From positions 320,001 through 384,000 of the forward strand of contig CAVVNQ010000008.1 in the NCBI GenBank assembly GCA_963749705.1: DNA of 64,000 nucleotides, given 5' to 3'. The number at the start of each line of letters is the position of its first letter. The stretch's first letter is position 1. The notes under the pieces were generated by a model. It was not told where the DNA came from, made no database searches, and was given only the letters and a program-made list of their open reading frames with translations. The stretch is from an uncultured Chloroflexia bacterium. GTDB taxonomy: Bacteria; Chloroflexota; Limnocylindria; Limnocylindrales; CSP1-4. The position numbers were made by a program, and so were the translations under genes. Shown one piece after another: positions 39,287 through 41,769 of the stretch.

Positions 39287-40174
39287 TCAGCGGGCGGGCG
39301 GCGGCAGGCTCCCGACGAACCGACGGATGACCCGGGCCAGCTGCGGACCGGAGACCTCGCCCGCCTCGAGCACCTCGGCGTGGGTCAGCGGCTGTCCGCT
39401 GTACCCCGCGCCCGCGTTGGTGACCAGGGACACGCCGCACACCTCGAGCCCGATCCAGCGCGCGGCGATCGCCTCGAGCACCGTGGACATGCCGACGGCA
39501 TCGGCGCCCATCGTGCGCAGCATCCTGACCTCGGCCGGGGTCTCGTACGTGGGGCCGATCAGGCCGGCATAGATGCCCTCGGCGAGCTCGACGCCCTCGG
39601 CCGTCCCGGCCGCGTGGAGCCGCTCGCGGAGGCGGGGTGACCAGACGTCGGTCATGTCCGCGAACCGGGGCCCGAGCTCGTCCGCGTTGGGCCCCAGCAG
39701 CGGCGTGCGTCCAGTGAGGTTGAGGTGGTCCGAGATGACCATGAGCGTCCCGGGCCCGAAGGACGGGTTGACGCCGCCGGCGGCGTTGGTCAGCACCACG
39801 AGCTCCGCGCCCAGCTGGCGGAACAGCAGCACCGGCTGGACCACCAGCCCGGGGGCGTTGCCCTCGTACAGGTGGAACCGGCCCTGGAGCATGACGACCG
39901 GGGTCCCGGCCAGCCGGCCCAGCAGCACCCGGCCCGCGTGCCCCGGTGCCGTCGCGACGGGCCAGCCGGGCAGGTCCTCGAACGGGATGGTGACCGCATC
40001 CTCGAGATCGTCGGCGAGGCTGCCCAGCCCCGATCCCAGGACGATGCCGGCGCGCGGGACGAGGGCCGTTCGCGCTCGCACGGCCGCAGCCAGGGCCGCC
40101 AGGCGAGCCGGTTGCTCCGCGGGCGCGATCGGGCGCGACCGGTCGATGGGCGTCAGGGGAAGGTCGTCGCTCAT
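39287..40174 (-). CDS. punA: Purine-nucleoside phosphorylase (trimeric family)
   Basis: GIVLGSGLG, QGRFHLYEG, TNAAGG, GPTYETPAE, GADAVGMSTV. Confidence 0.93.
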   Translation of the reverse strand: MSDDLPLTPIDRSRPIAPAEQPARLAALAAAVRARTALVPRAGIVLGSGLGSLADDLEDAVTIPFEDLPGWPVATAPGHAGRVLLGRLAGTPVVMLQGRFHLYEGNAPGLVVQPVLLFRQLGAELVVLTNAAGGVNPSFGPGTLMVISDHLNLTGRTPLLGPNADELGPRFADMTDVWSPRLRERLHAAGTAEGVELAEGIYAGLIGPTYETPAEVRMLRTMGADAVGMSTVLEAIAARWIGLEVCGVSLVTNAGAGYSGQPLTHAEVLEAGEVSGPQLARVIRRFVGSLPPPAR

Positions 40175-40371
40175 GGGGGCAGGATAGCCGCGCGCCGATG
40201 GGTCGGCATCACCGGACGCCTGGGCTGCGGCGGAGTCGCCTGCGCCCGATCGCGGTCCGGGAGCCGAAAACTTCGACGCCCGGAGGGAGTACCGACACCG
40301 GGATGCCGGTCACGTCCTTCCGGGCGCCCACCGCGACGGCCCTTGCGGACCGCCGACGCTGGCAACGAAGC

Positions 40372-40513
40372 GCCCGAAGCGACCGGAGAGCGTCGGTCCT
40401 TGATGTGATCGCGGACCTGACGCCGGCGTGGCCTTGAGGTGATCTCAGCCGGCCGGGTGGAACGGGCTTGAGGCGATCGCCTCCGTTCCGGGCCTCCATC
40501 GGCCCCTTCGGGC
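40372..40513 (-). ncRNA. Unannotated structured small RNA: four-way junction with three hairpins bearing near-identical 13-nt loops; may extend to ~40268
   Basis: 5' GCCCGAAG pairs with 3' CUUCGGGC; loops GCGAUCGCCUCAA, GAGAUCACCUCAA, GCGAUCACAUCAA at exact 34-nt period; own promoter. Confidence 0.7.
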
Positions 40514-40520
40514 AGGACCC

Positions 40521-40549
40521 ACACTAGGGGCGCCGCGCCCGACCTCCAA
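40521..40549 (-). promoter_or_regulatory. sigma70-type promoter of the small RNA
   Basis: TTGGAG-17-TAGTGT; predicted +1 at ~40513 coincides with the 5' end of the closing stem. Confidence 0.65.
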
Positions 40550-40554
40550 GCGGG

Positions 40555-40629
40555 TTGTCCACCAACCGCGGGCCACGGCCCGTCCCGTCGTCCACGAGTT
40601 TTCCTCCCCTGTGGACGACCTGTGGACGA
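40555..40629. promoter_or_regulatory. Cluster of four DnaA-box-like 9-mers
   Basis: TTGTCCACC (40555), TCGTCCACG (40588), TGTGGACGA (40610, 40621). Confidence 0.45.
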
Positions 40630-40656
40630 GCGGGCCTCCCCGGGTGTCGGGCGGCG

Positions 40657-41769
40657 CTAGCCGCCCAGCGCGAACATCTCCACCTTGGGCAGCAATTCCG
40701 TGGCGGCGCTGCGCAGCTCCGAGTACCGGTCGGTGCGCACCGCCCACACGGCCCGCAGCCGCGCCTCGAGCTCCGCGTCCGTCTCGCCGTCTCGCAGCGG
40801 CGTCTTGAGGTCCGTCCCGTGCACCGCGAACAGGCAGGTGTACAGGTGACCCTCGGCAGACAGCCTCGCCCGGGTGCAGTCGCCGCAGAACGGCCGGCTG
40901 ACCGAGGCGATCACGCCGACCTCGCCCGAGCCGTCGCGGAACCGGTACCGGCCGGCCACCTCCCCGCGATAGTTGGCGCCGACGGGCTCCAGGGGCAGCT
41001 CGGCATCGATCGCCGCCAGGATCTCGTCCGCGGGCACCACGTCATCGAGGCGCCAGCCATTCGAGTGCCCCACGTCCATGTACTCGATGAACCGCAGGAC
41101 GAGGCCCCGGTCCCGCGCCCACCGCACGAGCGGCAGGATCGACGCCTCGTTCATGCCCCGGCGCACGACCGTGTTCACCTTGATCGGCGTGAGGCCGGCG
41201 GCGCGGGCCGCGTCGATGCCGTCGAGAACCCGCGACACGGGGAAGTCGACGCCGTTCATCGTGCCGAACACGCGATCGTCGAGCGAGTCGAGGCTGACGG
41301 TGATCCGCCGCAGTCCGGCGTCGGCGAGCGGAGCGGCGAGGGCACGCAGCGCGGAGCCGTTCGTGGTCAGGGTGAGGTCGACCGGTTGCCCGTCCTCCGT
41401 GCGCAGCTTCGCCAGGTGCCCGATCAGGACCGGCAGGTCGCGACGGACCAGCGGCTCACCGCCCGTGATCCTGAGCTTGCCCACGCCGAGCCGGACGAAG
41501 ATGCCGGCCAGTCGCGCGATCTCCTCGAACGTCAGCACCTCCGCCCGCGGCAGGAACGCGAAGTCGCGGCCGAACACCTCGGCCGGCATGCAGTACGGGC
41601 AGCGGAAGTTGCAGCGGTCGGTCACCGAGATCCGCAGGTCGCGCAGGGCGCGGCCGAGACGATCCGTCACGCCGGGGCGCCCATCGAACTCGAGCGCCGA
41701 GGCAGACGCGGGTGCGGCGGCGAGCGAGGTTCCAGGCGGGCGGAGGGGAGGATCGGGGACGGGTGCCAT
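40657..41769 (-). CDS. moaA: GTP 3',8-cyclase
   Basis: LRISVTDRCNFRCPYCMP, FCGDCTRARL, C-terminal GG. Confidence 0.95.
   Translation of the reverse strand: MAPVPDPPLRPPGTSLAAAPASASALEFDGRPGVTDRLGRALRDLRISVTDRCNFRCPYCMPAEVFGRDFAFLPRAEVLTFEEIARLAGIFVRLGVGKLRITGGEPLVRRDLPVLIGHLAKLRTEDGQPVDLTLTTNGSALRALAAPLADAGLRRITVSLDSLDDRVFGTMNGVDFPVSRVLDGIDAARAAGLTPIKVNTVVRRGMNEASILPLVRWARDRGLVLRFIEYMDVGHSNGWRLDDVVPADEILAAIDAELPLEPVGANYRGEVAGRYRFRDGSGEVGVIASVSRPFCGDCTRARLSAEGHLYTCLFAVHGTDLKTPLRDGETDAELEARLRAVWAVRTDRYSELRSAATELLPKVEMFALGG

What the first reader, a model, noticed from the sequence alone, without database searches (positions are those of the whole stretch)
40372..40549. Promoter-driven four-way-junction sRNA with three loops mimicking the 16S rRNA 3' tail
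Seen: on the minus strand a TTGGAG-17-TAGTGT promoter predicts +1 at ~40513, exactly where a closing stem starts (GCCCGAAG-G-GGCC..GGAG pairs with CUCC-GGUC-G-CUUCGGGC, ending 40372). Inside are three hairpins with different stems (GGAACGG/CCGUUCC; CCGGC..GGCU/GGCC..GCCGG; CGUC-A-GGUCC/GGACC-GACG). Their 13-nt loops are near-identical, G(C/A)GAUC(A/G)C(C/A)UCAA, at exact 34-nt spacing (plus-strand motifs at 40398, 40432, 40466). Conserved loops on divergent stems point to a multivalent RNA. Known: 16S rRNA ends in GAUCACCUCC; Era's KH domain reads GAUCA; CsrB/RsmZ and cuckoo RNAs use repeated loops to sponge proteins or pair with RBSs. Inference: a trivalent anti-Shine-Dalgarno mimic that binds GAGGUGAUC RBSs or titrates a 16S-tail-binding protein. 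I do not recognise it as a named family.
Basis: partly seen in the sequence, partly recalled or inferred. Interest (0 to 1): 0.9.

Follow-up and report, generated by a model that had tools for sequence, protein, structure and literature searches.

The report
Modular small RNA behind DnaA-box promoter
This is a real, expressed small RNA of an uncultured soil Chloroflexota lineage that displays three copies of one conserved loop and is driven by a promoter flanked by replication-initiator (DnaA) binding sites, but the loops' likeness to the ribosomal RNA tail is not the conserved feature.

Summary
On the minus strand a promoter (TTGGAG-17-TAGTGT) precedes an RNA starting at about 40513. Its first 142 nt form a four-way junction with three hairpins carrying G(C/A)GAUC(A/G)C(C/A)UCAA loops 34 nt apart. 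Covariation supports the fold: 94% of cells paired and 14 compensated pairs, against 0-3 in slid controls. No Rfam family matches.

The RNA is longer than reported, about 244 nt (40513 to 40270). It has a second conserved 3' domain, also covariation-supported. Metatranscriptome contigs from four studies cover only 40264-40515.

It belongs to a family confined to one family of Candidatus Limnocylindria. The homologous RNA carries 1, 2, 3 or 5 loop hairpins in the conserved moaA-punA gap. Genomes hold 1-4 paralogous RNA genes with the same closing stem and promoter type. That promoter has two phased DnaA-box-like sites (GTGGAYAA), the motif also found in these genomes' oriC regions.

Outside this genus the loop reads GAUCACAUC in 45 of 57 loops, not the anti-Shine-Dalgarno GAUCACCUC. 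The 16S-tail mimicry is therefore not the conserved feature.

Best reading, inferred: a DnaA-controlled multivalent binding platform, probably a protein decoy or scaffold. The partner is unknown.

The parts
40621..40629 (-). DnaA-box-like site in inverted orientation (reads TCGTCCACA on the minus strand)
   Evidence: Read. The core motif matches the oriC boxes of this genome.
40610..40618 (-). Second inverted DnaA-box-like site (TCGTCCACA)
   Evidence: Read.
40588..40596 (-). Distal direct DnaA-box-like site (CGTGGACGA), 33 bp upstream of the proximal box
   Evidence: Read. A distal box at -81 to -83 is present in 25 of 27 family promoters.
40555..40563 (-). Proximal DnaA-box-like site (GGTGGACAA), 5 nt upstream of the -35 hexamer
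   Evidence: A proximal box at -49 to -51 is present in 27 of 27 family promoters.
40544..40549 (-). -35 hexamer TTGGAG (TTGACC in most relatives)
   Evidence: The hexamer is conserved next to a variable 17-18-nt spacer. The E. coli-type consensus scan does not call it.
40521..40526 (-). -10 hexamer TAGTGT (TAnnGT in relatives)
40270..40513 (-). Whole RNA, about 244 nt, with two domains
   Evidence: RNA contigs from 4 studies cover 40264-40515 and nothing in 40516-40650. One 241-nt contig spans 40271-40504. Poly-T loose ends lie before 40270/40271.
40372..40513 (-). 5' domain: closing stem plus a four-way junction with three loop-bearing hairpins
40468..40480 (-). Loop 1, GCGAUCGCCUCAA
40434..40446 (-). 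Loop 2, GAGAUCACCUCAA. Shares GAUCACCUC with the 16S 3' tail.
40400..40412 (-). Loop 3, GCGAUCACAUCAA. This is the family-consensus form.
40366..40371 (-). GCUUCG, 5' strand of the helix that closes the 3' domain. It pairs with 40275-40270.
   Evidence: MFE of the full RNA. GCUUC and GAAG are conserved across genera.
40334..40355 (-). Variable hairpin capped by a GCAA/GCGA tetraloop
40277..40326 (-). Conserved 3' hairpin: a 12-bp stem, a CGUG/AC internal loop, a 7-bp stem and a UCCCGG loop
   Evidence: Alignment A3 of 27 sequences: 95.9% of cells paired and 10 of 19 pairs with double changes, against 1-3 when slid. One copy per genome.
40267..40275 (-). CGAAG(U), 3' strand of the closing helix, followed by a UUUU run. 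This is the RNA 3' end.
40174..40186 (-). The punA gene's own -10 box (TATCCT, 40186-40181), 6 nt before its ATG at 40174. The mRNA looks leaderless.
   Evidence: TAnnnT followed by ATG recurs in most of the 19 genus orthologues aligned.

Best explanation
SHOWN
- Window 40513 to about 40270 on the minus strand encodes a stand-alone, transcribed RNA of about 244 nt with two domains.
- The 5' domain is a closing stem plus a four-way junction that presents three copies of a 13-nt loop, G-N-GAUC-R-C-M-UCAA.
- The 3' domain is a single, highly conserved long hairpin closed by a GCUUC/GAAG helix.
- The RNA is the local version of a lineage-specific RNA that sits between moaA and punA in most genera of one family of Candidatus Limnocylindria (Chloroflexota).
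- In that family the number of loop hairpins is 1, 2, 3 or 5.
- The same genomes carry 1-4 paralogous RNA genes. These share the 13-bp closing stem (GCCCGAAGGGGCC with GGUUCCUUCGGGC) and one promoter design.
- That design is a -35/-10 pair with a GTGGAYAA site 4-5 nt upstream of the -35 and a second site 33 bp further up.
- GTGGAYAA is also the box found just downstream of dnaA in these genomes.

INFERRED
- DnaA binds the two phased boxes and sets transcription of this RNA set, so its level follows the cell's replication-initiation state.
- The RNA works as a multivalent binding platform. Each loop hairpin is one binding module for the same partner, most likely a protein that is titrated or scaffolded.
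- The invariant 3' hairpin binds something else or organises the fold.
- The identity of the partner is not known.
For: Structure:
- 5' domain: 94% of cells paired and 14 compensated pairs, against 0-3 in slid controls.
- 3' hairpin: 95.9% paired and 10 compensated pairs, against 1-3 in slid controls.
- Many G-U pairs, and reverse-strand model scores near 22 bits against 94-97 bits forward, fix the strand.

Not coding: gaps between orthologues are 1 or 2 nt long, and the overlapping 117-aa ORF has no Pfam match.

Expression:
- 23 RNA runs from 14 studies hold part of the stretch.
- In 4 laid runs from 4 studies, contigs cover 40264-40515 only, with nothing in 40516-40650.
- One 241-nt contig spans 40271-40504, and poly-T loose ends lie before 40270/40271.

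Independence from punA:
- punA has its own -10 box 6 nt before its ATG.
- Paralogues lie in unrelated contexts.

Family distribution:
- Model R1 matches 105 of 151 genomes and 39 of 49 genera of the family.
- The 3' hairpin model matches 29 of 44 genomes of the family and 0 of 106 from four other families of the class.
- moaA and punA both flank the RNA in 24 of 30 loci.

Module number and exclusivity:
- Homologues carry 1, 2, 3 or 5 loop hairpins.
- The same loop occurs in a second RNA of about 81 nt.
- In a hairpin context the loop occurs only in these RNAs in this genome.

Promoter:
- The proximal box is present in 27 of 27 promoters and the distal box in 25 of 27. The spacing is 33 bp in 22 and 32 bp in 3.
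- The composite pattern of box, TTG and GCCCGRAGGG occurs in 140 of 151 family genomes at 1-4 copies. Reversed-pattern control hits are 0 in every genome.
- The same pattern occurs in 0 of 106 genomes from other families.
- In this genome all 4 instances of a box followed by a promoter are these RNAs.
- GTGGAYAA lies downstream of dnaA in 5 of 6 genomes checked, at about 2600-2850 nt in the locus. In the sixth the only hit lies on the other side of the dnaA match.
Against: - No binding experiment or partner exists; the organisms are uncultured.
- DnaA binding is inferred from sequence alone. A dedicated factor with a similar site would look the same.
- The window's own promoter is weak by E. 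coli consensus, and the consensus scan finds nothing.
- Contigs cannot show strand or exact ends, and their depth is a poor measure of level.
- One-hairpin homologues show that multivalency is not required.
- Two of the four paralogues in this genome lack the loop motif. The shared promoter and stem therefore do not by themselves imply a shared partner.
- Genera g9, g15 and g36 of the family gave no 3'-hairpin match.
- The invariance of several loop positions in my count is by construction of the search pattern.
- Rows of A3 were picked by the GGCATCCCGGTGTC motif.
Confidence: 0.5

Rival explanations
1. One reading: an anti-Shine-Dalgarno mimic acting by base pairing. The CCUC-containing loops would pair with GAGGUGAUC-type ribosome-binding sites of mRNAs and block or modulate translation, as C-rich-loop sRNAs do.
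For: - Loop 2 shares 9 nt with the 16S tail.
- Loops 1 and 2 of this genus keep CCUC.
- In hairpin 1 a GGAGG pairs with the loop's CCUC, which resembles an SD/anti-SD duplex.
Against: - Position 9 is A in 45 of 57 loops from other genera and paralogues, and several homologues have no CCUC loop.
- No 11-mer complement of any loop exists elsewhere in the genome.
- Only 4 of 176 GAGGTGATC and 0 of 32 GATGTGATC occurrences lie just upstream of a likely start codon.
- Several genes here look leaderless.
Confidence: 0.12
2. One reading: a decoy of the 16S 3' tail that titrates a tail-binding protein such as the GTPase Era (KH domain), YbeY or a related 30S maturation factor.
For: - GAU is invariant in all three loops across the 21 aligned genus orthologues.
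- The fifth base of GAUCA is A in 47 of 57 loops.
- Era reads GAUCA, especially its two adenines, next to a helix (passages of PMC10582724).
- Each loop follows a helix.
- A variable module number of 1-5 fits a titrating RNA.
Against: - The second adenine is G in 10 of 57 loops, and in loop 1 of most genus members.
- CCUCC is not kept.
- Other invariant loop bases (C8, U10, C11, A12, A13) have no counterpart in the 16S tail.
- The motif sits in a closed loop, not a free 3' tail.
- Era is universal, whereas the RNA is confined to one family.
Confidence: 0.1
3. A cis-acting leader or riboswitch of punA. The structured RNA would end at a conditional terminator, and read-through would control the purine-nucleoside phosphorylase gene.
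For: - Same strand as punA and only about 95 nt upstream of it.
- moaA and punA both flank the RNA in 24 of 30 loci.
- The RNA ends at a UUUU run in this genome.
- Both neighbours act on guanine compounds.
Against: - punA has its own conserved -10 box directly before the ATG.
- No RNA contig bridges past 40264 towards punA in the 4 runs.
- The U run is not conserved in other genera.
- The hairpin number varies from 1 to 5, which is unlike an aptamer.
- Paralogues with the same stem and promoter sit before unrelated genes that have their own promoters.
Confidence: 0.08
4. The DNA is the functional part. The box clusters would act as DnaA-titrating or DnaA-recharging sites, as datA and DARS do, and the RNA would be a by-product of transcription that modulates DnaA occupancy.
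For: - There are 2-4 boxes per locus and 1-4 loci per genome.
- The loci are dispersed away from oriC. In G179 dnaA is at 0.17 Mb and the RNA at 3.34 Mb.
Against: - The RNA itself is under strong structural selection, with compensatory changes in both domains.
- It accumulates in RNA libraries.
- These facts show the RNA matters, though they do not exclude a dual role.
Confidence: 0.05
5. A miniature transposable element or generic repeat whose 13-bp terminal inverted repeats merely look like a closing stem.
For: Several copies per genome share inverted ends.
Against: - The interiors of the paralogues are unrelated.
- Each paralogue keeps its locus across species and genera.
- The conserved promoter lies outside the inverted ends.
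- The stem covaries through compensatory changes.
Confidence: 0.01

Closest known systems
CsrB/RsmZ-type protein-sponge RNAs
   Same: A stand-alone abundant RNA built from a variable number of hairpins that all present the same short loop motif. The module number changes between relatives, here 1 to 5.
   Different: - The loop motif lacks the GGA that CsrA/RsmA reads.
- No Rfam match.
- The partner is unknown.
- There is an extra invariant 3' domain.
- The promoter carries DnaA boxes rather than a two-component-system site.
Multi-loop antisense sRNAs with anti-SD-like loops (cuckoo RNAs, 6C RNA, RsaE). Recalled from memory; not tested beyond Rfam.
   Same: Several hairpins carry one repeated loop sequence. 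Some loops here contain CCUC.
   Different: - The family-consensus loop is GAUCACAUCAA, not C-rich.
- No enrichment of complementary ribosome-binding sites was seen.
- No Rfam match.
3' tail of 16S rRNA as the Era KH-domain ligand (GAUCACCUCC next to helix 45)
   Same: A GAUCA core follows a helix. Loop 2 is identical to the tail over 9 nt.
   Different: - The motif sits in a closed 13-nt loop.
- CCUCC is not conserved.
- There are extra invariant bases (UCAA).
- The RNA is lineage-restricted.
DnaA-regulated promoters (dnaA, nrdAB, sda and others; review PMC8203912)
   Same: DnaA boxes sit directly upstream of a -35 element, in the position typical of promoters DnaA is reported to regulate.
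   Different: - The driven genes are small RNAs. The review has 0 occurrences of 'sRNA', 'small RNA' or 'non-coding'.
- Two boxes lie at a fixed 33-bp phase.
- The same design is reused for 1-4 RNA genes per genome.
Y RNAs (bacterial Rsr/Y RNA)
   Same: The 5' and 3' ends pair in a conserved stem shared by paralogues whose interiors differ.
   Different: No TROVE/Rsr gene was found in this 88%-complete genome. No Rfam Y RNA match. No tRNA-like module was seen.

Membership tests
Any Rfam 15 family | Covariance-model score at or above the family's gathering threshold | tested here: not met
   0 matches over the whole window. Only chance-level matches at E of 1-8 in 40100-40750. Nothing relevant at the paralogous loci.
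CsrB/RsmZ sponge | Repeated GGA-containing loops (AnGGA) | tested here: not met
   The loops read G-N-GAUC-R-C-M-UCAA and contain no GGA.
CsrB/RsmZ sponge | Variable number of identical binding hairpins in a stand-alone RNA | tested here: met
   1, 2, 3 or 5 hairpins in homologues. The RNA has its own promoter and a discrete transcript.
CsrB/RsmZ sponge | CsrA/RsmA partner encoded in the genome and bound by the RNA | not tested
   No search for CsrA was run. Binding cannot be tested with these tools.
Anti-SD-mimic antisense sRNA | Conserved CCUCC-type loop complementary to ribosome-binding sites | tested here: not met
   Position 9 is A in 45 of 57 loops. Some homologues have no CCUC loop.
Anti-SD-mimic antisense sRNA | Complementary sites at translation starts | tested here: inconclusive
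   A crude start-codon test found 4 of 176 GAGGTGATC and 0 of 32 GATGTGATC occurrences in position. No annotated gene set and no cross-genome target search were used.
Riboswitch or cis leader of punA | Lies in the 5' UTR of the regulated gene, with read-through into it | tested here: not met
   punA has its own -10 box 6 nt before its ATG. RNA contigs stop at about 40264-40271.
Riboswitch or cis leader of punA | Fixed aptamer architecture | tested here: not met
   The hairpin number varies from 1 to 5.
Type III antitoxin (ToxI-like repeats) | Tandem direct sequence repeats followed by a toxin gene | tested here: not met
   The stems differ and covary; only the loops repeat. The neighbours are MoaA and PunA.
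DnaA regulon promoter | DnaA boxes matching the organism's oriC boxes at the promoter | tested here: met
   GTGGAYAA is present at the promoter in 27 of 27 family members aligned. It lies downstream of dnaA in 5 of 6 genomes checked.
DnaA regulon promoter | DnaA binding and a DnaA-dependent change in transcription | not testable with these tools
   Needs EMSA or footprinting and in vitro transcription.
Y RNA / Rsr | Rsr (TROVE) protein encoded in the genome | tested here: not met
   No PF05731 match in G000, which is 88% complete.
6S RNA | Rod-like fold with a central bubble, and a match to RF00013 | tested here: not met
   The fold is branched with two domains. RF00013 finds nothing in G000, though it matches in only 5 of 14 control genomes.

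The most novel reading that the evidence does not exclude
One family of uncultured soil Chloroflexota runs a DnaA-controlled regulon made of paralogous small RNAs. Its main member would be an expandable decoy (1-5 modules) of the GAUCA-containing 3' tail of 16S rRNA that titrates Era or another 30S maturation factor. Ribosome biogenesis would then be tied directly to the replication-initiation state of the cell.
Probability: 0.07. Interest if true: 0.9.

Novelty: new variant of a known kind. Interest (0 to 1): 0.66.

Why it matters
- It adds a well-supported, abundant structured RNA family from a widespread but uncultured soil lineage, for which I found no ncRNA literature.
- Its design is unusual in two ways. 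A binding module is copied 1-5 times between close relatives. A promoter type with two phased DnaA boxes is reused for several small RNA genes per genome.
- If DnaA does control these RNAs, this would be a direct link from the replication initiator to post-transcriptional or ribonucleoprotein regulation. My searches and a 2021 review of DnaA's transcriptional roles did not turn up such a link.
- The RNA is short, has sharp conserved features and is testable in vitro.

Tried and rejected
Rfam: the whole window at gathering threshold, the locus at E up to 10 and the paralogous loci gave nothing usable.

Coding ORF: the 117-aa ORF at 40171-40524 overlaps the RNA. It has no Pfam match, and 1- and 2-nt gaps between orthologues break any frame. 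Rejected.

Transposable element or repeat: rejected because of conserved synteny and unrelated interiors.

Housekeeping RNAs:
- SRP RNA lies elsewhere, at C8:25501-25600.
- RF00013 (6S) finds nothing in G000, but that model is insensitive.
- No TROVE gene.

Targets:
- No 11-mer complement of any loop elsewhere in the genome.
- No complement (up to 2 mismatches) in the dnaA leader of 6 genomes. The two weak hits lie inside or after dnaA.
- I ran no proper cross-genome target prediction.

Other checks:
- C15:89080 matches the 3'-hairpin core exactly but lies in coding sequence.
- The consensus promoter/terminator scan found 0 sites.
- I did not lay a DNA run or a separate silent stretch. The uncovered 40516-40650 within the laid stretch serves as the only internal control.
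- Parts without cover and contig depths are not used as measures of expression level.

Literature:
- Searches found nothing on this RNA. One search listed general DnaA papers only.
- I read only matched passages of PMC8203912 and PMC10582724. All other papers were seen as search listings.
- Supplementary files were not consulted.

Unpublished genomes:
- The tallies include genomes flagged unpublished (G121 in both, G177).
- Without them the counts are 104 of 150 and 138 of 149.

Taxon name: the name 'CSP1-4' for this GTDB family would be my recollection only and comes from no call. The lineage name Limnocylindria comes from record titles.
Full report
**Observation**

- TTGGAG lies at 40549-40544, a 17-nt spacer follows, and TAGTGT lies at 40526-40521.
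- G40513 lies 7 nt after the -10 hexamer and opens GCCCGAAGGGGCC.
- Three hairpins follow. Their 13-nt loops are GCGAUCGCCUCAA (40480-40468), GAGAUCACCUCAA (40446-40434) and GCGAUCACAUCAA (40412-40400), exactly 34 nt apart.
- The closing strand CUUCGGGC ends at 40372.

The 142-nt stretch folds at -77.4 kcal/mol, z = -4.26, and 0 of 200 shuffles fold as well. A loose form of the loop pattern has only six hits in the 3.6-Mb genome. Three are here and one is in a paralogous RNA. The other two are in coding sequence without a hairpin. The flanking genes are moaA (GTP 3',8-cyclase) and a PunA-type purine-nucleoside phosphorylase. Rfam 15 gives no match at gathering score over the window and only chance-level matches at the locus.

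**Structure**

The region is conserved in 22 of 24 other genomes of the genus, down to 74% identity. I aligned 21 orthologues (A1) and counted pairs for the four-way-junction model.
- 94.0% of cells pair, against 26-48% when the 3' partners are slid by 1-3 columns.
- 14 of 47 pairs carry changes on both sides, against 0-3 slid.
- 0 of 500 shuffles reach these values. RNAalifold finds the same helices on its own.
- The closing stem covaries: C-G changes to U-A, and A-U changes to G-C.
- Gaps between orthologues are 1 or 2 nt long, so the overlapping 117-aa ORF is not coding. It also has no Pfam match.
- G-U pairs and much lower reverse-strand model scores fix the strand.

**The RNA is longer than reported**

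Sequence downstream of 40372 is also conserved.
- It holds a variable hairpin with a GCAA/GCGA tetraloop (40355-40334).
- It then holds an almost invariant long hairpin (40326-40277): a 12-bp stem, a CGUG/AC internal loop, a 7-bp stem and a UCCCGG loop.
- On 27 sequences from many genera this hairpin is 95.9% paired. 10 of 19 pairs are compensated, against 1-3 slid. The rows were chosen by the core motif, so invariance of that core is by construction.
- In the MFE of the full RNA, GCUUCG (40371-40366) pairs with CGAAGU (40275-40270) and closes this second domain. Both strands are conserved across genera.

**Expression**

Twenty-three RNA runs from 14 studies hold part of 40250-40650. I laid four runs from four studies; all were contigs.
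- Cover runs from 40264 to 40515 and is zero over 40516-40650 in all four.
- One 241-nt contig spans 40271-40504.
- Two contigs carry poly-T before 40270/40271. On the minus-strand RNA that is an A tail after the 3' end.
- One run shows adapter junctions at 40375 and at 40498/40501. Its depth is much higher over the 5' domain. A second run is highest over the 3' domain.

This fits an RNA of about 244 nt (40513 to 40270), perhaps with a shorter form of about 140 nt. Contigs cannot prove strand or exact ends, so this is supporting evidence rather than proof.

punA has its own TATCCT box 6 nt before its ATG, and that arrangement recurs in most of the 19 genus orthologues aligned. The RNA is therefore not needed as its leader.

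**Family**

Record titles place the lineage in Chloroflexota, Candidatus Limnocylindria/Limnocylindrales.
- A covariance model of the 5' domain (R1) matches 105 of 151 genomes and 39 of 49 genera of the taxonomic family.
- A model of the 3' hairpin (R2) matches 29 of 44 genomes of that family, once per genome. It matches 0 of 106 genomes from the four other families of the class.
- moaA and punA both flank the RNA in 24 of 30 loci, and at least one of them does in 29 of 30.
- The number of loop hairpins in the homologous RNA is 1, 2 or 3 in different genera. It is 5 in two species of the window's own genus.

**Paralogues**

The window's genome has four RNA genes that start with GCCCGAAGGGGCC.
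- All four fold with a 13-bp closing stem.
- One, about 81 nt, carries a single copy of the same loop. It is almost invariant in five other species.
- The other two have unrelated interiors.

**Promoter**

All four genes have a GTGGAYAA site 4-5 nt upstream of the -35 hexamer, plus further sites.
- In 27 family promoters the proximal site is present in 27 and a distal site in 25. The spacing is 33 bp in 22 and 32 bp in 3, while the sequence between the sites varies freely.
- The window's own pair, at 40563-40555 and 40596-40588, is also 33 bp apart. Two inverted sites lie further upstream.
- The composite pattern of box, TTG and GCCCGRAGGG occurs in 140 of 151 family genomes at 1-4 copies. Reversed-pattern control hits are zero everywhere. 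It occurs in 0 of 106 genomes of the other families.
- In this genome the only four instances of a box followed by a promoter are these RNAs.
- The same GTGGAYAA motif lies in the dnaA-dnaN gap of this genome. It lies downstream of dnaA in four of the five other family genomes checked.
- Genome-wide the motif occurs only 64 times, about the count expected from base composition.

It is therefore reasonable to call these sites DnaA boxes. Binding itself is not shown.

**What the loops are**

I collected loops with a pattern that fixes G1, G3, A4, C8 and U10-A13. In the 57 loops found outside the genus alignment, position 9 is A in 45 and C in 12, and position 7 is A in 47 and G in 10.
- The family consensus is GAUCACAUCAA, in which GAU can pair with AUC around a CRC triloop.
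- The 16S tail is GGAUCACCUCCUUUCU.
- The 9-nt identity of loop 2 is thus a feature of some loops in this genus, not of the family. Some homologues have no CCUC loop at all.
- No complement of a loop occurs elsewhere in the genome.
- GAGGTGATC is common, at 176 occurrences, but only 4 sit before a likely start codon.

This weakens the anti-Shine-Dalgarno reading. The GAUCA core that Era's KH domain reads (passages of PMC10582724) is mostly kept, so a tail-binding protein stays possible but untested.

**Mechanism**

I commit to the following, with about even odds. DnaA sets transcription of a small set of paralogous RNAs. This one is a multivalent platform whose repeated loop hairpins each bind one copy of the same partner, most likely a protein.

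Three observations fit a titrating or scaffolding RNA better than an aptamer or a single-seed antisense RNA:
- the module number expands from 1 to 5 between close relatives;
- the loop is reused in a second RNA under the same promoter type;
- in a hairpin context the motif is exclusive to these RNAs.

The rivals are antisense pairing to ribosome-binding sites, an Era-type decoy, a punA leader, a DNA-level DnaA-titration site and a mobile repeat. Each is weighed in its own section.

**Comparison and novelty**

The RNA works most like CsrB/RsmZ-type sponges but fails their defining GGA loop. It is in no Rfam family. My literature searches found nothing on ncRNAs of this lineage or on DnaA-box-driven small RNAs. 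A 2021 review of DnaA as a transcription factor has no occurrence of 'sRNA', 'small RNA' or 'non-coding'. I rate it a new variant of a known kind: a repeated-loop small RNA with a new motif, a second invariant domain and a reused DnaA-box promoter.

**Limits**

- The organisms are uncultured and no partner is known.
- DnaA binding is inferred from sequence only.
- RNA evidence comes from contigs only.
- Two genomes in the tallies are flagged unpublished. Counts without them are given under Tried and rejected.

Noticed in passing
G000 contigs C2:290084 (+), C4:22014 (+) and C10:33745 (-); all outside the window: Three paralogous small RNA genes of about 86, 180 and 73 nt. They have the same DnaA-box promoter type and the same 13-bp closing stem. 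Only the C10 one carries the loop motif. The C10 RNA is nearly invariant in five other species.
   Followed up: partly
G000 C3:187400-187950 (locus L041): Likely oriC in the dnaA-dnaN gap. It has CGTGGACAAG, CGTGGATAAC and several weaker sites in both orientations.
   Followed up: partly
window 40174-40186 (punA); also the genes after the C2 and C10 paralogues: A TAnnnT box sits 6-7 nt before ATG or GTG start codons, suggesting that leaderless mRNAs are common in this lineage.
   Followed up: no
L135 (G179) and L137/L174 (G046), same genus as the window: The homologous RNA has five loop hairpins instead of three, and its closing stem is altered.
   Followed up: partly
G000 C15:75291 (-): An unusually AT-rich stretch for a genome of 71.5% G+C. 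A GTGGACAAG site is followed by two TTGACAA repeats and TATAAATA. It may be another regulated promoter or an iteron-like element.
   Followed up: no
window 40264-40347 compared with 40376-40487: Two metatranscriptomes show opposite depth ratios for the 3' and 5' domains of the RNA. That could reflect processing into two stable halves, or it could be relatives' contigs summed together.
   Followed up: no
L041:1790-1866 (+): A sub-threshold Rfam match to AsdA, the antisense RNA of dnaA mRNA (30.8 bits against a gathering score of 52, E = 0.0048), inside the dnaA locus. It is probably due to conservation of the dnaA coding sequence.
   Followed up: no
family alignment downstream of the closing stem: In most other genera GCCCG follows GCUUCGUU and could pair with the CGGGC of the closing stem's 3' strand. 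That would give a possible alternative hairpin. This genus lacks it.
   Followed up: no
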